DNA of 64,000 nucleotides from a virus (taxonomy: Duplodnaviria; Caudoviricetes), in the IMG/VR virus record IMGVR_UViG_3300017917_003016, positions 64,001 through 128,000 of that record. The stretch is one strand, 5' to 3'. Positions within the stretch are counted from its first letter, which is position 1. Each line of letters opens with the position of its first letter. Under the pieces are notes generated by a model, which saw only the letters and a program-made list of their open reading frames with translations, ran no database searches and was not told where the DNA came from. Of the stretch, positions 59,956 to 63,528 are shown piece by piece. Both the position numbers and the translations under genes were made by a program.

Positions 59956-60852
59956 ATGACTCGATATTCTTCCTATCATGAATTTGATCAAGATACAAAA
60001 AACTTACCAAGAATAAGTTATCTTGAGACCATGCTGACCTATGCTTGCACACTGAGTTGTCGCAGTTGTACAAACTACAGCGACTACGGTATGAAAGGTG
60101 GGCATGTCAAATGGTCTACAGCGAAACCGTGGTTAGATGCATGGTTTGATCGTATACGAGTGGACTGCTTTGGTTTTATTGGTGGCGAACCTCTAATGAA
60201 TCCAGAATTAGAAACATGGATTAGAGAATTTCGTAAAAACTATCCATTTACTACAATTATGATTGTAACCAATGCTCAACTGTTTACAAAAAATCTTTGG
60301 ATACTAGATGTTATGGAAGAACTAGGTATGATTTACCTTAAGTTCACTAATCACATTCCCAAAGCCAAATATTTTACCAAAGCGGTGGATACAGTATTAT
60401 CTAGATTTCCGTGGGAATATAAACCCGAGTGGGAAAGGTATTTTTATCAAGAAAAAATTCTAGACTTTCTTGTTAGTGAATCACCAACTTTTATGAAAAC
60501 CTATCGGGGTGAGTATGGTTCAATGAAACCCTACAACAACGATCCACAACAGGCATTTAAGATTTGTAATCAACAAATTTGTCCTCTTCTTTATAACGGT
60601 CGCCTCTACAAGTGTAGCAGCCTAGGTATGCTATCGAGAGTTTTACAAGACCACGGCCAAGTTGACGATCCTGACTGGCAACCGTTTGTGCAAAATCAAG
60701 GATTGGATTTAAGTTGTTCTGATGAAGAATTGCGAGCATGGGCTGATAATTTTGGTAAGCCTATTAAAGAATGTAGGATGTGCCCAACAGAGAAAGATAA
60801 ACCTTTTCATTCTCACTATGACACAGTTGTTAATAGAATTAACATTTTTTAA
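59956..60852 (+). CDS. radical SAM protein with C-terminal auxiliary Cys motifs
   Basis: CTLSCRSC, GGEPL, VTNA, C-x4-C...YKC...CRMC. Confidence 0.85.
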   Translation: MTRYSSYHEFDQDTKNLPRISYLETMLTYACTLSCRSCTNYSDYGMKGGHVKWSTAKPWLDAWFDRIRVDCFGFIGGEPLMNPELETWIREFRKNYPFTTIMIVTNAQLFTKNLWILDVMEELGMIYLKFTNHIPKAKYFTKAVDTVLSRFPWEYKPEWERYFYQEKILDFLVSESPTFMKTYRGEYGSMKPYNNDPQQAFKICNQQICPLLYNGRLYKCSSLGMLSRVLQDHGQVDDPDWQPFVQNQGLDLSCSDEELRAWADNFGKPIKECRMCPTEKDKPFHSHYDTVVNRINIF

Positions 60853-60899
60853 TAGAAATCACATGTGATTTTTTGGACAAGTATAAATAAAATGTATGG

Positions 60900-60928
60900 T
60901 TGATACAAGTCAACGTAAGTATTACAAT
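60900..60928 (+). promoter_or_regulatory. sigma70-like promoter of leader ORF (late box TATAAATA at 60882)
   Basis: TTGATA-17-TACAAT. Confidence 0.6.
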
Positions 60929-60943
60929 AGGCGTTATACAAAG

Positions 60944-61069
60944 ATGAACACAAATCTTAACCTAAGACCAACACAGCCCAAAACACTAACCAGTGTTGTA
61001 GCATCCTATTGGTCACAGTTTGAGAGTCTAAATTGCGATCGCAGCATTGGCGGGGGGGTTCTAGGTTAA
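60944..61069 (+). CDS. putative attenuator leader peptide (41 aa)
   Basis: MNTNLNLRPTQPKTLTSVVASYWSQFESLNCDRSIGGGVLG; last codons form the 5' strand of an antiterminator. Confidence 0.55.
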   Translation: MNTNLNLRPTQPKTLTSVVASYWSQFESLNCDRSIGGGVLG

Positions 61070-61101
61070 CGGTATAGCAGCACATGCACACTAACTTAGG
61101 A

Positions 61102-61128
61102 CCCTGGACAGAAAATCCAGGGTTTTTT
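61102..61128 (+). terminator. attenuator-type intrinsic terminator
   Basis: CCCTGGA-CAGAAAA-TCCAGGG-TTTTTT; 5' arm overlaps alternative 12-bp helix 61056-67/61093-104. Confidence 0.8.
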
Positions 61129-61151
61129 GTTTTGTGCAGTAGAAAAAGAGG

Positions 61152-61180
61152 TTGACACTGGCGCAGATTAGTACTATACT
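61152..61180 (+). promoter_or_regulatory. sigma70 promoter of ncRNA/tRNA cluster
   Basis: TTGACA-17-TATACT. Confidence 0.8.
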
Positions 61181-61202
61181 GTGCAACATGTTAACTAAAC
61201 AT

Positions 61203-61957
61203 GCGGTTGTAAGGTGTGGTGGGTAACGAGGACCCAGACAGCACTCTAAACATTGTCAAACGGGCGGAGGCTGGGAGTCACAACAAACAGTCAGGGTACA
61301 GACGGTGTACCCACTATACATAAGCACACTGAAGGGCATTACCGCGTGTCTAACACTGCCCGATGAGTTAGACCAGTGTGCTTATGTATAGTGAAATCAG
61401 TTTTGGGGAGGGCACCTCCGTGACGGGAGGTTTTGATCGCCAGTGCAGTTGGGTCCCGGGTTAGTGGACAGAAAGACTGCCCTGCGTCACCAGAGTGCAC
61501 ATCAAGCGCCTCTCCAACCCTTTTATGAGGCTGCAGCCTCATATACGGAAGATGAGTAAACTCGAGTAAAACTCATCAAGGCACAAACAGCGGAGGCGTA
61601 TCGTCCCTCCCATGCTGAACCTGACAGCCTGGAAAGACAGGCACTATAGATAAGTGCTGTCAAGGGTATCGTTACGGGACGCCGTAACTATGCGGGCCTA
61701 ACTGGCGTGGAACAGGTCCTGATATAACCGCTATACGCTGTGGGATGGAAGCACCAGACCCCTAAATTGGCAAGACAGCACTTTTCTATAGTTTTCAAAA
61801 ACTATAAATCTGCACGGTAGCGAAAGGAGTCTAGTCAACTCGCCCACCTGCAAGGGTAGTACATATGCCATCCCTGGCCCTGCTGACCCAGGATAACCCA
61901 GGTGACACCAGAGCCGCTTACATGAGGCTCACGCAGGGTGCAGATCTATAGTTTTTT
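61203..61957 (+). ncRNA. array of unidentified structured RNAs (at least 5 modules)
   Basis: GC-rich, no credible ORF; long closing stems 61312-31/61374-93, 61643-61/61774-92, 61801-15/61938-52; internal hairpins and pseudoknots. Confidence 0.7.
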
Positions 61958-62045
61958 GGAAGTGCGGCTCAGATGGCGGATGGGCACCGGACTGTAAATT
62001 CGGCACACAGAAACGCAGTAGGTTCGAATCCTACCACTTCCACCA
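61958..62045 (+). tRNA. tRNA-Tyr(GTA)
   Basis: GGAAGTG/CACTTCC acceptor, CCGGA-CTGTAAA-TTCGG, long variable arm, encoded CCA. Confidence 0.9.
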
Positions 62046-62048
62046 TTC

Positions 62049-62200
62049 AATGACGACCGGCTAAATCTGCGGAGTGCAGGCCCAGGTTGGGGGTGATACG
62101 CCACTCAAGTTCCAACCCGTCATTTATCAAAAAGGGAGAGCGTTGAGCATGAAACCATGCCTGCTCTTAAACGACAATGACTGCGTCCCTAGAGATTCCC
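62049..62200 (+). ncRNA. two unidentified structured elements between tRNA-Tyr and tRNA-Glu
   Basis: AATGACG/CGTCATT and GGTTGG/CCAACC stems; AGAGC/GCTCT with GCATG-AAAC-CATGC hairpin. Confidence 0.5.
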
Positions 62201-62278
62201 GTCCCTATAGATTACGATTGGTTAGATCATCACCCTTTCAAGGTGAAGAACCGGGATCGTCGCCCGGTAGGGACGCCA
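62201..62278 (+). tRNA. tRNA-Glu(TTC)
   Basis: GTCCCTA/TAGGGAC, TCACC-CTTTCAA-GGTGA, CCA. Confidence 0.9.
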
Positions 62279-62284
62279 GTTTTA

Positions 62285-62373
62285 GGAGAGTTGCCAGAGT
62301 GGTAATGGAGCGGATTGCTAATCCGTCGTTTGCGAAAGCAGGCGCATTGGTTCGAATCCAATACTCTCCGCCA
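62285..62373 (+). tRNA. tRNA-Ser(GCT)
   Basis: GGAGAGT/ACTCTCC, long variable arm, TTCGAAT, CCA. Confidence 0.93.
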
Positions 62374-62378
62374 AGTAT

Positions 62379-62455
62379 GGTCTGTTAGAATAGTGGCCTA
62401 ATTCGCCTGCCTGTCACGCAGGAGATCAGGGGTTCAAATCCCCTACAGACCGCCA
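62379..62455 (+). tRNA. tRNA-Asp(GTC)
   Basis: GGTCTGT/ACAGACC, CCTGC-CTGTCAC-GCAGG, CCA. Confidence 0.93.
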
Positions 62456-62457
62456 TT

Positions 62458-62532
62458 TGCCGCGTAGCTCAGAGGAAGAGCAATCGGTTGATAACCGATA
62501 GGTCGACATTTCAAAACTGTCCGTGGCAACCA
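62458..62532 (+). tRNA. tRNA-Ile(GAT)
   Basis: TGCCGCG/CGTGGCA, ATCGG-TTGATAA-CCGAT, atypical T arm, CCA. Confidence 0.85.
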
Positions 62533-62537
62533 ATTAT

Positions 62538-62611
62538 TGGGGTATGGTGAAATGGTATCACACAGGATTTTGATTCCCGTGTTCTTGGTTCGATTCCAAG
62601 TACCCCTGCCA
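62538..62611 (+). tRNA. tRNA-Gln(TTG)
   Basis: GGGGTA/TACCCC, loop TTTTGAT, TTCGATT, CCA. Confidence 0.88.
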
Positions 62612-62612
62612 A

Positions 62613-62688
62613 GGTAATGTAGCACAGCGGGAAGTGCAGCGTCTTCATATGTCGCAGGTCGTTGGTTCAAATCCAACCATTACCACCA
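62613..62688 (+). tRNA. tRNA with CAT anticodon (elongator Met or Ile2)
   Basis: GGTAATG/CATTACC, loop TTCATAT; lacks initiator GGG/CCC anticodon-stem pairs; CCA. Confidence 0.85.
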
Positions 62689-62692
62689 AAAT

Positions 62693-62769
62693 ACGCCTGT
62701 AGTTCAGCGGAATAGAACACTGGTCTACGAAACCAGAGGTCGGTGGTTTGAATCCACCCAGGTGTGCCA
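62693..62769 (+). tRNA. tRNA-Arg(ACG)
   Basis: ACGCCTG/CAGGTGT, CTGGT-CTACGAA-ACCAG, CCA. Confidence 0.9.
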
Positions 62770-62835
62770 AATTTACTGATCAGTAAATTTACAGTTAAAA
62801 CTAACTGAATTAGTAAAATTATTACTGATCAGTAA
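62769..62835. repeat. two copies of palindrome TTACTGATCAGTAA
   Basis: Perfect 22-bp AAATTTACTGATCAGTAAATTT at 62769-62790; core again at 62822-62835. Confidence 0.9.
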
Positions 62836-62842
62836 ATTTTAT

Positions 62843-62917
62843 GGTGTCTGTAGTGTAGCGGCAACACTCAAGATTGTGGATCTTGCATCATGAGTTCGAA
62901 CCTCATCGGGCACCCCA
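62843..62917 (+). tRNA. tRNA-His(GTG)
   Basis: G-1/C73, GTGTCTG/CGGGCAC, CAAGA-TTGTGGA-TCTTG, CCA. Confidence 0.93.
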
Positions 62918-62918
62918 C

Positions 62919-62947
62919 TTGACAATTGGTCAGTTTACAGTTATAAT
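62919..62947 (+). promoter_or_regulatory. consensus sigma70 promoter
   Basis: TTGACA-17-TATAAT. Confidence 0.88.
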
Positions 62948-62970
62948 TATGAAAATTTAAAGGAGGCAAC

Positions 62971-63528
62971 ATGCCAGCAACATTTTTGGTCAGCGACACG
63001 CATTTTGGTCACGCTGGCGTCTGCCGATTCCTGCGTGAGGATGGTACTAAACTCAGACCATTTGACACGCCCGAAGACATGGACGAATTCATGATCAAGG
63101 CGTGGAACGACCGTGTTAAGCCTAACGACAAGGTCTACCATCTCGGTGATGTGGTCATTAACCGCAAGTCTCTCAAAACTCTTGCTCGCCTTAACGGTGA
63201 CAAAGTGCTTATCAAGGGTAACCACGATATCTTTGCACTAGAGGATTATACCACCTACTTTAGAGATATTCGCGGTTATCACGTCATGAATGGCATGATC
63301 CTTAGTCATATCCCTGTGCATGCAGACAGTCTTGCACGTTTTGGTACCAACATTCACGGACATCTGCACGCCAATCGTGTCATGAAAGATGGAGTTATTG
63401 ATCCAAGATACCACTGTGTTTGTGTAGAGCACACCGACTATGCTCCTATACTGTTTGAGGATGTAATCAAACGTATTCTAGAAGAAGGCGGCAGTGTGGG
63501 TTTTAGGAACGGCAACGGTCCACTTTAA
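62971..63528 (+). CDS. calcineurin-like phosphoesterase
   Basis: SDTHFGH, YHLGDV, KGNHD, LSHIP, NIHGHLH; AGGAGG SD. Confidence 0.9.
   Translation: MPATFLVSDTHFGHAGVCRFLREDGTKLRPFDTPEDMDEFMIKAWNDRVKPNDKVYHLGDVVINRKSLKTLARLNGDKVLIKGNHDIFALEDYTTYFRDIRGYHVMNGMILSHIPVHADSLARFGTNIHGHLHANRVMKDGVIDPRYHCVCVEHTDYAPILFEDVIKRILEEGGSVGFRNGNGPL

What the first reader, a model, noticed from the sequence alone, without database searches (positions are those of the whole stretch)
61312..61952. Cassette array of novel RNAs, each closed by a long ACTATA...TATAGT stem
Three different inserts are bracketed by long stems with shared termini: 61312-31/61374-93 (20/20 bp), 61643-61/61774-92 (18/19) and 61801-15/61938-52 (14/15, extended by A/T runs). 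The first two also both continue AAGGG(C/T)AT after the 5' arm. The inserts (42, ~112 and ~122 nt) are unrelated and structured. The last stem ends 5 nt before tRNA-Tyr. A common wrapper around variable payloads suggests a shared processing signal (RNase III-like or a phage nuclease) releasing a set of small RNAs. Shared ends also allow alternative pairing (TATAGTTTT-C-AAAAACTATA, 61787-61806). I could not assign any module to a known family.
Basis: partly seen in the sequence, partly recalled or inferred. Interest (0 to 1): 0.85.

Follow-up and report, generated by a model that had tools for sequence, protein, structure and literature searches.

The report
Stem-wrapped RNA cassettes in phage tRNA arrays
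Ahead of a giant lake phage's tRNA genes lie three small RNA modules, each closed by the same kind of long stem, and this stem proves to be a conserved "wrapper" that hundreds of related phages use around more than a hundred different RNA inserts, a system that does not seem to have been described.

Summary
Three 19-20-nt inverted repeats with shared ACTATA...TATAGT ends lie at the stated coordinates. They are three of only four such repeats in the 64-kb window; 300 shuffles gave none.

They sit in a gene-free, strongly folding ~770-nt leader between a sigma-70-like promoter (61152-61180) and a nine-tRNA array in an uncultured jumbo phage.

- A conserved helix, 5' (N)CCAUAUWRAARCACAUU / 3' AGUGUGUUUYWAUAUGG(U), encloses inserts of 3-360 nt.
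- I found 146 distinct cassettes in about 100 payload clusters. A separate strict pattern scan hit at least 120 viral contigs, against one tiny contig in 185,579 prokaryote genomes.
- The helix usually starts at the encoded CCA of one tRNA and ends at the next tRNA.

Module 1 carries this wrapper. Module 2 belongs to a widespread ~155-nt RNA family with strong covariation (40 of 50 pairs) that is absent from Rfam. Module 3 and the module 1 payload have no detectable relatives.

Best reading: cassettes co-transcribed with the tRNAs, cut out by tRNA-processing nucleases, with ends protected by the helix. Release, the enzyme and payload functions are inferred. Earlier notes of this scan describe look-alikes in other genomes.

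The parts
61098..61126 (+). Terminator-like hairpin plus U-run that closes the upstream unit
   Evidence: 11-pair stem, 5 G-C pairs, followed by TTGTTTTGTG.
61152..61180 (+). Sigma-70-like promoter (TTGACA, 17 nt, TATACT; 11 of 12), the likely start of the cassette and tRNA transcript
   Evidence: There is no terminator-like site on the + strand between it and the tRNAs.
61187..61311 (+). Structured leader before module 1
   Evidence: fold. Weak nhmmer relatives of 61211-61280 occur in about 7 related loci.
61312..61393 (+). Module 1: perfect 20-bp wrapper (61312-31 / 61374-93) around a 42-nt payload
   Evidence: I1. Its arms are the best (3' arm, 15.5 bits) or among the best (5' arm, 12.9 bits) matches in the 201-kb genome to a wrapper matrix built only from other phages. 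The payload has no homolog.
61394..61641 (+). Structured spacer between modules 1 and 2. It could be enclosed by the alternative pairing 61378-93 / 61642-57.
   Evidence: No homologs were found.
61640..61795 (+). Module 2: a member of a widespread ~155-nt phage RNA family ('family A'), closing helix 61643-61 / 61774-92
   Evidence: BLAST relatives at E 1e-13 to 1e-17. Model R1 finds 8 relatives among 81 loci and 76 among the 100 pattern-derived loci (66-167 bits). In a 67-sequence alignment 94% of cells pair, against 36-44% with slid partners, and 40 of 50 pairs have double changes.
61797..61956 (+). Module 3: 19-bp helix (61797-815 / 61938-56, one A.C) around a 122-nt payload, ending 1 nt before tRNA-Tyr
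   Evidence: (I3). The payload has no homolog. Wrapper membership rests only on its resemblance to modules 1 and 2.
61958..62917 (+). Array of nine tRNA genes (Tyr, Glu, Ser, Asp, Ile, Gln, Met, Arg, His), all with an encoded CCA
   Evidence: The CCA ends are read directly.
62769..62839 (+). Fourth cassette: perfect 18-bp hairpin filling the tRNA-Arg / tRNA-His gap. It starts right after the CCA of tRNA-Arg and is followed by TATGG before tRNA-His.
   Evidence: The arm sequence differs and contains the palindrome TTACTGATCAGTAA.
62971..63528 (+). Calcineurin-type metallophosphoesterase gene embedded in the tRNA array (conserved neighbour; possible RNA-end healing enzyme, inferred)
   Evidence: There are more than 597 relatives in viral contigs, nearly all beside tRNAs. 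It is present in 21 of 115 loci found by the wrapper pattern alone.

Best explanation
The three modules are RNA cassettes of a system found across a clade of freshwater jumbo phages. This is the phage group whose tRNA arrays also carry GOLLD RNA.

Each cassette is a variable 'payload' RNA held in the loop of a conserved 18-22-bp helix. The consensus is 5' (N73)CCA-UAUWRAARCACAUU ... AGUGUGUUUYWAUA-UGG(U) 3'.

The cassettes are transcribed as part of the tRNA operon. Here that is from the sigma-70-like promoter at 61152-61180, through modules 1-3, into tRNA-Tyr.

In the typical arrangement the first bases of the helix are the encoded CCA end of the upstream tRNA. Its last bases abut, or are, G1-G2 of the downstream tRNA. 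The enzymes that mature the tRNAs would therefore also free the cassette:
- RNase P cuts after the conserved U at -1 on the 3' side.
- An endonuclease cuts just after the CCA. The candidates are an RNase E-type cut in the A/U-only outer half of the helix, host RNase III on the 20-bp duplex, or the phage's own YkuK-like RNase H-fold nuclease.

The inner half of the helix, which contains G-C pairs, would stay behind as a clamp that shields both ends of the excised RNA from exonucleases.

The helix is the constant functional part: 'empty' copies with a 3-nt loop exist. The loop acts as a slot in which new small RNAs arise or are swapped. Some have become conserved structured RNAs, such as module 2's family A, family B and several tRNA-like inserts. 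Others are specific to one lineage, such as the payloads of modules 1 and 3.

Shown: the architecture, its conservation, the covariation and the link to tRNAs. Inferred: co-transcription, the cleavage sites, the enzyme, and any payload function.
For: Anatomy in the window: promoter, three helices, tRNAs and no ORF. The fold has z = -8.5. G+C is 0.49-0.54 here against 0.35-0.45 in the flanks.

Generalisation:
- Among 611 inter-tRNA gaps in related loci, terminal-stem length is bimodal: 70 gaps have stems of 17-24 pairs, against 2 in chimeric controls.
- I found 183 cassettes, 146 of them distinct, in 100 loci, forming 101 payload clusters.
- A strict two-arm pattern hits at least 120 viral contigs, against one 1.5-kb contig in 185,579 species genomes.
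- 113 of the 115 new loci carry tRNAs. In 81 of 119 matches the pattern's CCA is the 3' CCA of a tRNA. In 35 the final GG is G1-G2 of the next tRNA.

Pairing is under selection. At variable positions the two arms change together: offset 4 shows U:A 72, A:U 41, G:C 15 and only 2 mispairs of 131. Different arm subtypes coexist in one genome.

The helix is functional on its own. Empty hairpins occur (L089 6636-6678). The slot after tRNA-Lys(UUU) holds 24 payload types in 25 distinct cassettes.

Payloads look like RNA:
- G+C is 0.50 against 0.29 in the arms.
- T-loop hairpins occur in 9 payloads, against 0.46 expected.
- Family A covaries strongly.
- Family B is present in 38 loci.

Candidate enzymes:
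- RNase P alone can separate polycistronic tRNAs in E. coli (PMC4176162, abstract seen).
- A YkuK-like nuclease sits inside the array in 4 of 5 genomes and in 23 of 115 pattern-derived loci. It has invariant acidic residues and an RNase H-type fold.
- A phosphoesterase is also embedded in the arrays.
Against: - No RNA data.
- Modules 1-3 do not follow a tRNA. They lie in the leader and read CACUAUA instead of NCCAUAU, so the CCA-anchored logic applies to them only by homology.
- Only module 1's arms score well against the family matrix. The arms of modules 2 and 3 fall below 8 bits, and an outer-half matrix does not discriminate in this A+T-rich genome.
- Payloads as a class are only weakly more structured than mononucleotide shuffles (mean z = -0.68), so many may be neutral filler.
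- The helix is conserved in sequence, not only in pairing. It also has two recurrent non-Watson-Crick pairs: A.C at offset 5 in 58 of 104 cassettes and U.G at offset 13 in 74 of 104. Simple end protection does not explain this.
- Genome G003 has cassettes but no YkuK-like gene.
- No phage RNase III or dsRBD protein was found.
Confidence: 0.6

Rival explanations
1. Punctuation hairpin only. The helix is a processing or insulating signal of the tRNA operon: it separates folding units, blocks exonucleases and directs cleavage. The inserts are mostly neutral loop expansions with no function of their own. The window's three modules would then be relics of such hairpins in the leader.
For: - Empty hairpins with 3-nt loops exist, and one tRNA-Lys slot carries 24 different inserts.
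- About 100 payload clusters occur among 146 cassettes, most seen once.
- Payload folding is weak.
- The payloads of modules 1 and 3 have no relatives in 2.8 Mb of related arrays.
Against: - Families A and B are conserved across dozens of phages, and family A's internal helices covary.
- Payloads are G+C-rich like tRNAs in A+T-rich genomes.
- The same payload recurs in different tRNA contexts.
- In the window the cassettes are not between tRNAs, so there is nothing there to punctuate.
Confidence: 0.22
2. DNA-level recombination cassettes. The conserved arms are crossover or folded single-strand sites, comparable to the PeSL motifs of T4-type phages or to integron attC sites. They shuffle payloads and neighbouring tRNA genes between co-infecting phages. 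The RNA hairpin would be a by-product.
For: - Arm sequence is conserved beyond what pairing needs.
- The left and right arms differ consistently at two positions.
- tRNA order downstream of a given cassette varies widely, and identical payloads sit in different contexts.
- PeSL-mediated modular shuffling is documented (PMC2839356, PMC4122927).
Against: - The cassettes sit only in tRNA arrays and on the tRNA strand.
- The helix is anchored on RNA-processing landmarks, the CCA and +1.
- The payloads are non-coding structured RNAs with G.U-containing covariation.
- There are no target-site duplications.
- No recombinase was seen as a recurrent neighbour.

This reading can coexist with the RNA reading.
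Confidence: 0.1
3. Miniature inverted-repeat transposable elements (MITE-like) that insert next to tRNA genes.
For: The elements have conserved terminal inverted repeats around short non-coding inserts, are present in many copies, and occur in varied contexts.
Against: - There are no target-site duplications: observed counts equal the shuffled control.
- Internal sequences are not homogeneous.
- The arms covary within each copy, and subtypes coexist in one genome.
- The elements are confined to tRNA arrays of one phage clade and absent from 185,579 prokaryote genomes apart from one phage-like scrap.
- No transposase is a recurrent neighbour.
Confidence: 0.03
4. A single giant ornate RNA (GOLLD- or ROOL-like) of about 770 nt, rather than separate cassettes.
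For: The stretch is long, ORF-free and strongly folding, and it lies next to tRNAs. GOLLD itself occurs in related arrays (L200, L009, L125).
Against: - There is no GOLLD or ROOL hit in the window, even at E <= 10.
- Module 2 occurs on its own between two tRNAs in other phages.
- The other segments are not conserved alongside it.
- The GOLLD copies in relatives are not flanked by wrapper arms.
Confidence: 0.03
5. The CACTATAG / CACTATAC boxes are promoters of a T7/SP6-type single-subunit RNA polymerase.
For: The sequence at 61642-61654 (CACTATAGATAAG) resembles the -8 to +5 part of SP6/T7 promoters. This comparison is from memory.
Against: - No T7-like RNA polymerase was found in five genomes. 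The search had no positive control.
- The clade consensus is CCAUAU, not CACUAUAG.
- Each box has a complementary partner, and the two covary.
Confidence: 0.02

Closest known systems
Small stable RNAs processed out of phage and bacterial tRNA operons: T4 species 1 and 2 (rnaC/rnaD) RNAs, and the E. coli 3'ETS-leuZ and tRNA-spacer sponge RNAs (own knowledge, not checked here)
   Same: They are non-tRNA RNAs embedded in a polycistronic tRNA transcript and released by the tRNA-processing nucleases. Their 5' and 3' ends are paired.
   Different: Those are single, fixed RNAs. Here one conserved helix, anchored on the CCA, recurs around more than 100 different inserts in hundreds of phages. I did not test sequence similarity to the T4 RNAs.
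RNase III processing stems of rRNA operons and T7 early transcripts
   Same: A long duplex is formed by the sequences flanking a payload RNA. It has about 20 bp, recurs within one transcript, and is partly conserved in sequence, with non-Watson-Crick pairs.
   Different: The phages encode no RNase III, and cleavage is untested. The helix ends coincide with tRNA ends, which rRNA and T7 stems do not.
Theta (minimal HDV-like) ribozymes at the 3' ends of phage tRNAs (Kienbeck et al. 2024, PMC10879173)
   Same: Both are RNA elements placed flush against the 3' end of phage tRNAs, specific to phages and thought to serve tRNA 3' maturation.
   Different: Theta ribozymes are a fixed catalytic fold starting with G1. 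They occur in gut phages, next to tRNAs that mostly lack an encoded CCA (4.5% have one). Here the constant part is a plain helix starting at an encoded CCA followed by U, the inside is variable, no HDV-family match was found, and the phages are from lakes.
GOLLD RNA (Rfam RF02032)
   Same: It occurs in the same phage clade and the same tRNA-array neighbourhood. It is present in related loci L200, L009 and L125 at 160-214 bits.
   Different: The window has no match. GOLLD is one large conserved RNA and is not enclosed by the wrapper arms.
Bacterial and phage Y RNAs (YrlA, RF02553) with Ro60/Rsr
   Same: Both have a long terminal stem closing a structured, sometimes tRNA-like, module, and both occur near tRNAs in some phages.
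   Different: There is no RF02553 match on the modules, no TROVE/Ro gene in five genomes, and the stem sequence is unrelated.
PeSL promoter-terminator cassettes of T4-type phages (PMC2839356, PMC4122927)
   Same: A short conserved repeated motif brackets highly variable inserts and could mediate modular shuffling.
   Different: PeSLs are direct repeats that flank protein genes and act as promoter plus terminator. Here the arms are inverted, covary as a hairpin and enclose non-coding RNA inside tRNA operons.

Membership tests
CCA-anchored wrapper-hairpin cassettes of lake jumbo-phage tRNA arrays (family defined here) | Closing helix of 18-22 bp matching the consensus (N)CCAUAUWRAARCACAUU / AGUGUGUUUYWAUAUGG | tested here: met
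   Module 1 scores 12.9 and 15.5 bits, the best or near-best in the 201-kb genome, with a matrix built from other phages only. It is 16/19 identical (by my eye) to the CACTATATGTAAACACATT variant found in L125, L142, L162 and others. Module 2 shares only the outer half, but its orthologs carry canonical arms. Module 3 is below threshold, so inconclusive.
CCA-anchored wrapper-hairpin cassettes of lake jumbo-phage tRNA arrays (family defined here) | Lies in or at the head of a tRNA array, on the tRNA strand | tested here: met
   An analogous leader array of four cassettes lies upstream of the tRNAs in L023.
CCA-anchored wrapper-hairpin cassettes of lake jumbo-phage tRNA arrays (family defined here) | The 5' arm begins with the encoded CCA of the upstream tRNA | tested here: not met
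   Modules 1-3 follow no tRNA and read CACUAUA. In the window only the 62769-62839 hairpin starts at a tRNA's CCA end (tRNA-Arg). Across the clade, 32% of pattern matches likewise lack an upstream tRNA.
CCA-anchored wrapper-hairpin cassettes of lake jumbo-phage tRNA arrays (family defined here) | The 3' arm ends at, or within a few nt of, +1 of the next tRNA | tested here: met
   Module 3 ends 1 nt before tRNA-Tyr. Modules 1 and 2 are followed by further non-coding RNA instead.
Family A RNA (~155 nt, model R1, defined here) | Sequence and structure match, with a covarying four-helix core carrying the conserved GGACG loop, CUAUNCGGG and UCCUGANAUAAC | tested here: met
   Module 2 scores 159.8 bits, but it was one of the four seed sequences. 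Independent support comes from BLAST at E 1e-13 to 1e-17 to four loci and from all the conserved motifs being present. Family covariation is shown.
GOLLD (RF02032) / ROOL | Match to the Rfam covariance model | tested here: not met
   There is no hit in 60700-63000 at E <= 10 and none in the window at gathering score.
YrlA / Y RNA with Ro60 | RF02553 match on the module, and a TROVE (Ro/Rsr) gene in the genome | tested here: not met
   The only RF02553 hit (17.5 bits) lies on tRNA-Met/Arg. PF05731 is absent from five genomes, while controls were positive.
HDV-like / theta self-cleaving ribozyme | Nested double-pseudoknot fold with G1 at the tRNA 3' end and a catalytic C in J4/2 | tested here: inconclusive
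   No HDV-family Rfam match at E <= 10. The base after the CCA is U, and the inside is not conserved. The published theta descriptor itself was not run.
RNase III substrate | About two turns of dsRNA (met), and cleavage by RNase III (unknown) | not testable with these tools
   The helices have 18-24 bp. No phage RNase III or dsRBD protein was found. Testing needs an enzyme assay.
MITE | Target-site duplication and a homogeneous internal sequence | tested here: not met
   Flank identity equals the shuffled control. There are 101 payload clusters among 146 cassettes.

The most novel reading that the evidence does not exclude
The wrapper helix is the recognition handle of a dedicated phage RNA-processing system. 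A YkuK-like RNase H-fold nuclease, perhaps working with the array-embedded phosphoesterase, would use it to turn the highly expressed tRNA operon into a plug-in platform. Any RNA placed in the loop would be excised and stabilised. The hypervariable payloads (more than 100 types, including tRNA mimics) would then be an evolving arsenal of small RNAs for host takeover or for countering tRNA- and RNA-targeting defences. The two conserved non-Watson-Crick pairs would mark the cleavage or binding register.
Probability: 0.2. Interest if true: 0.9.

Novelty: new variant of a known kind. Interest (0 to 1): 0.74.

Why it matters
Phage tRNA arrays are usually read as lists of tRNA genes. This result shows that in a large, abundant clade of freshwater jumbo phages the spaces between and ahead of the tRNAs follow a rule.

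A sequence-conserved helix is anchored on the CCA end of one tRNA and the first base of the next. It carries interchangeable RNA inserts. This gives:

1. At least two new, strongly supported structured RNA families (A and B), absent from Rfam, to add to GOLLD in the same arrays.
2. A concrete, testable model of how a phage matures long tRNA transcripts and releases extra small RNAs.
3. A natural 'expression slot' that may show how new non-coding RNAs are born. It could also be borrowed as a tool for producing stable RNAs.
4. A candidate substrate for the widespread but uncharacterised YkuK/DUF458 nuclease family.

If the payloads prove to be decoys or regulators, this would be a new layer of phage-host conflict.

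Tried and rejected
- Rfam at gathering and at E <= 10 on the window, on the rest of the own array and on 12 related loci found only tRNA, tmRNA, GOLLD and one group I intron. None lies on a cassette.
- BLAST against 50,697 cultured phage records hit only the tRNAs.
- nhmmer with the module 1 payload, 61394-61641, module 3, the Tyr/Glu gap and the Gly/Ala cassette against 2.8 Mb of related arrays found nothing.
- A family B HMM finds no copy in the window's genome.
- GOLLD as a wrapped payload was rejected: there are no arms around it.
- Five genomes were searched for phage-encoded RNase III, dsRBD, Ro/TROVE, RtcB, CCA-adding enzyme and T7-type RNA polymerase. All were absent.
- Using G.U versus A.C counts to fix the strand of the helix was not decisive. 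The two recurrent non-Watson-Crick pairs swap roles on the other strand.
- An outer-half arm matrix meant to place modules 2 and 3 was uninformative in this A+T-rich DNA. Its top hits are coding sequence.
- The target-site duplication test was negative.
- A strict single-arm pattern in four complete genomes gave only 1-2 hits each, all in the tRNA region, too few for statistics.
- A PDB sequence search with the YkuK-like protein found nothing. The fold search gave only generic RNase H-superfamily matches at E of about 1e-3.
Full report
**Setting**

The window is bases 64001-128000 of a 201.7-kb IMG/VR virus record, estimated 56% complete. Relatives reach 320-365 kb, so this is a jumbo phage.

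The finding lies in a 1.1-kb stretch with no credible ORF (60853-61957), directly upstream of nine co-oriented tRNA genes (61958-62917). The array continues beyond the window: the genome has 27 tRNAs and a tmRNA.

A terminator-like hairpin (61098-61126) is followed by a strong sigma-70-like promoter (61152-61180, 11 of 12 matches). No terminator-like site follows on the + strand before the tRNAs. The simplest reading is one transcript from about 61187 through the modules into the tRNAs. This is inferred.

G+C rises to 0.49-0.54 here, against 0.35-0.45 in the flanks. The 771 nt fold with z = -8.5.

**Observation**

All three inverted repeats exist as described: 20/20, 18/19 and 18/19. They share CACTATA-type 5' ends and TATAGT-type 3' ends.

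They are three of only four such long-range repeats in the entire 64-kb window, and 300 shuffles gave none. The fourth (62769-62839) fills the gap between tRNA-Arg and tRNA-His. A fifth, weaker one lies just outside the window between tRNA-Gly and tRNA-Ala, at window coordinates 65485-65576.

Rfam 15 recognises nothing but tRNAs here, even at E <= 10.

**Module 2 is a member of a large RNA family**

- BLAST of the region against 80 loci fetched through the neighbouring phosphoesterase gene hit only 61652-61783, in four loci.
- In L016, L073 and L078 the homolog exactly fills a 153-nt gap between tRNA-Glu and tRNA-Lys. Its closing helix has changed sequence but kept pairing.
- A covariance model built from four sequences (R1) found 8 relatives among 81 loci and 76 among 100 loci fetched with a short conserved pattern, at 66-167 bits.
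- On a 67-sequence alignment, 94% of cells pair, against 36-44% when partners are slid. Forty of 50 pairs show double changes, and no shuffle of 500 reaches the observed scores.
- The alignment is fitted to the model and the sequences are related, so these figures lean high. The effect is nonetheless very large.
- Conserved unpaired motifs are a GGACG loop, CUAUNCGGG and UCCUGANAUAAC. I could not identify this RNA with any known class.

**The wrapper is a family in its own right**

I ran ARAGORN on all loci and measured, for each of 611 inter-tRNA gaps of 50-450 nt, the longest helix joining its first and last bases.

- The distribution is bimodal: 70 gaps have 17-24 pairs, against 2 in chimeric controls.
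- Of the 59 gaps holding family A, 25 have such a stem.
- Forty-eight other gaps with stems of 14 or more pairs have unrelated inserts but nearly the same arms.
- A seed-and-extend search over all loci gave 183 cassettes (146 distinct) in 100 loci, with inserts of 3-360 nt that fall into 101 sequence clusters.

Anchored on the ATAT box, 131 distinct cassettes give the consensus 5' A-C-C-A-U-A-U-W-R-A-A-R-C-A-C-A-U-U, paired with 3' A-G-U-G-U-G-U-U-U-Y-W-A-U-A-U-G-G-U. Eight positions are more than 93% invariant. The variable positions change in concert (offset 4: U:A 72, A:U 41, G:C 15, 2 mispairs).

As an independent check I scanned with a strict two-arm pattern:
- It hit a single 1.5-kb contig, binned to a freshwater actinobacterial MAG, among 185,579 prokaryote species genomes.
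- In the 115 new loci, 113 carry tRNAs (1,649 in 1 Mb).
- In 81 of 119 matches the pattern's CCA is the 3'-terminal CCA of a tRNA.
- In 35 the terminal GG is G1-G2 of the next tRNA.
- There are 102 distinct inserts.
- In complete genomes, matches to a strict arm pattern fall only in the tRNA region.

**How the window's modules relate to this family**

- Module 1's arms are the best (3' arm, 15.5 bits) or among the best (5' arm, 12.9 bits) matches in the whole 201-kb genome to matrices built without it. By my eye they are 16/19 identical to the CACTATATGTAAACACATT variant that several phages use in cassettes not preceded by a tRNA.
- Module 2's helix shares the outer half (CACUAUAGAUAAG against CCAUAUUGAAG). 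Its inner half belongs to family A.
- Module 3 resembles modules 1 and 2 (ACUAUA, six bases, CAC) but does not reach significance.
- Leader arrays like the window's occur elsewhere. L023 has four consecutive cassettes upstream of its tRNAs.
- The payloads of modules 1 and 3 and the 248 nt between modules 1 and 2 have no detectable relatives.

**What the helix and the payloads tell**

- The helix exists without a payload: there are 3-nt loops between tRNA-Lys and tRNA-His in L089 and L134.
- The slot after tRNA-Lys(UUU) carries 24 payload types in 25 distinct cassettes. Identical payloads also turn up between different tRNA pairs.
- Payloads are G+C-rich (0.50 against 0.29 in the arms) but on average only modestly structured (z = -0.68, mononucleotide shuffles).
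- Nine payloads contain a T-arm-like hairpin with GTTCRANYC, against 0.46 expected. Some are cloverleaf-like with the wrapper as a giant acceptor stem.
- A second conserved payload family (B, 170-215 nt) occurs in 38 loci but not in this genome.
- Two non-Watson-Crick pairs recur at fixed places: A.C at offset 5 in 58 of 104 cassettes and U.G at offset 13 in 74 of 104. Each single-step 'repair' is present at 14-30%. Because they swap roles on the complementary strand they do not fix the strand. The strand follows from the tRNAs and from G.U-containing covariation in family A.

**Mechanism**

All tRNAs here encode CCA and are mostly 2-7 nt apart. This layout fits separation by RNase P followed by exonuclease trimming, as documented for some E. 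coli operons (PMC4176162).

Where a cassette intervenes, RNase P cleavage at the next tRNA would leave the upstream tRNA carrying a blunt, exonuclease-resistant hairpin on its CCA. An endonucleolytic cut just after the CCA is therefore required (inference).

The outer half of the helix is almost purely A-U, and it reads A76-U-A-U-U/A. From my own knowledge this fits the RN|WUU preference reported for RNase E. I did not check that here.

Alternatives for this cut:
- Host RNase III acting on the 20-bp duplex. No phage RNase III or dsRBD protein exists in five genomes.
- A phage enzyme. Two protein genes recur inside these arrays.
  - One is a calcineurin-type phosphoesterase.
  - The other is a 156-aa YkuK/DUF458 RNase H-like protein (PF04308, E = 3.5e-16).
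    - It lies among tRNAs in 4 of 5 genomes and is present in 23 of 115 loci found by the wrapper pattern alone.
    - It is very abundant and well conserved: 6,888 relatives, with the 120 listed at 74-88% identity. It keeps invariant acidic residues D27, E64, D68, D106 and D148.
    - It is modelled at pLDDT 83, with generic Argonaute-PIWI, EndoV and RNase HI fold matches.
    - This is co-location, not proof, and genome G003 has cassettes without the gene.

**Rivals**

- A DNA-level recombination role (PeSL- or attC-like) is compatible with the sequence conservation and the shuffled tRNA order. It may coexist with the RNA role, but it does not explain the anchoring on tRNA ends.
- MITEs are disfavoured: there are no target-site duplications and the interiors are heterogeneous.
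- A single GOLLD-like giant RNA is rejected.
- Y RNA with Ro is rejected.
- RtcB-mediated circularisation has no phage enzyme.
- T7-type promoters lack a polymerase.
- Theta ribozymes (PMC10879173) are the nearest published case of an RNA element at phage tRNA 3' ends, but they are a fixed catalytic fold in a different setting.

**Novelty and limits**

My literature searches found no description of this wrapper or of families A and B. The library is incomplete, so this is not proof of absence.

First-stage notes and follow-up reports of this scan describe look-alike stem-closed RNAs flush with tRNAs in other phage genomes. Two of the first-stage notes share sequence words with module 2.

I rate this a new variant of a known kind: stable RNAs excised from stable-RNA operons by flanking helices. 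The unusual feature is a standardised wrapper with interchangeable contents.

Everything about expression, cleavage and function is inferred from sequence. No RNA data could be consulted.

Noticed in passing
window 60882-61146: A separate unit upstream of the cassette promoter has its own promoter-like site (60900-60928) and a terminator (61098-61126). It has weak but repeated nhmmer relatives in about 19 related loci. Another first-stage note reads it as a leader-peptide attenuator. I did not test that reading.
   Followed up: partly
window 62769-62839: A perfect 18-bp hairpin fills the tRNA-Arg / tRNA-His gap, with a CCA ... UAUGG frame like the clade's cassettes. Its arms contain the self-complementary TTACTGATCAGTAA, which could also be a protein-binding palindrome present twice.
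   Followed up: partly
window 62184-62213 and 62046-62200: The 155-nt gap between tRNA-Tyr and tRNA-Glu ends with a 14-nt near-copy (13/14) of the 5' end of tRNA-Glu (CGTCCCTAGAGATT / CGTCCCTATAGATT). The gap has no relatives. A sub-threshold permuted-tmRNA hit (23.5 bits) overlaps 62018-62096.
   Followed up: no
G000 129485-129576 (window coordinates 65485-65576, just outside the window): A 92-nt cassette lies between tRNA-Gly and tRNA-Ala, closed by a 13-bp stem that shares ACATAAG/CTTATGT with module 1.
   Followed up: partly
G000 130225-130695 (L204 3326-3796); also L206-L208: A YkuK/DUF458 RNase H-like nuclease gene is embedded among the tRNAs. It has 6,888 metagenomic relatives. A TilS-like PP-loop gene (G000 132962-133582) and an AdoMet decarboxylase-like gene also sit inside the array.
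   Followed up: partly
L089 679-914, L125 8007-8241, L200 5884-6127 and 35 other loci: 'Family B' is a conserved 170-215-nt payload (GGGUUACC..CCGUUAGG..AUGAA..GCGGCGGA..GUAAUGA) inside the same wrapper. It is not in Rfam and is absent from the window's genome.
   Followed up: partly
L200 8336-8801, L009 9002-9465, L125 10928-11336: GOLLD RNA (160-214 bits) sits in related tRNA arrays, and in L200 and L009 a tRNA gene lies inside it. In L009 that is a tRNA with anticodon UUA (an ochre-suppressor type). L009 and L014 also carry CUA-anticodon tRNAs.
   Followed up: no
L089 6636-6678, L134 7202-7244: 'Empty' wrappers occur: the full 20-bp helix with a 3-nt loop, between tRNA-Lys and tRNA-His.
   Followed up: yes
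L209 (CAZQNP010000058.1, 1,478 nt): The only prokaryote-genome hit to the wrapper pattern is a tiny contig binned to a Candidatus Planktophila MAG. It is probably a mis-binned phage fragment, and it hints at a freshwater setting.
   Followed up: no
related loci, cassettes that start at a tRNA: The upstream tRNA is strongly skewed to Lys(UUU), Gln(UUG) and Glu(UUC): 46, 15 and 3 of 81 in the pattern set, and 25, 6 and 11 of 57 in the first set. From my own knowledge, these three tRNAs carry 2-thiouridine wobble modifications and are the ones attacked by several anticodon nucleases. Shared ancestry of the slot could equally explain the skew.
   Followed up: no
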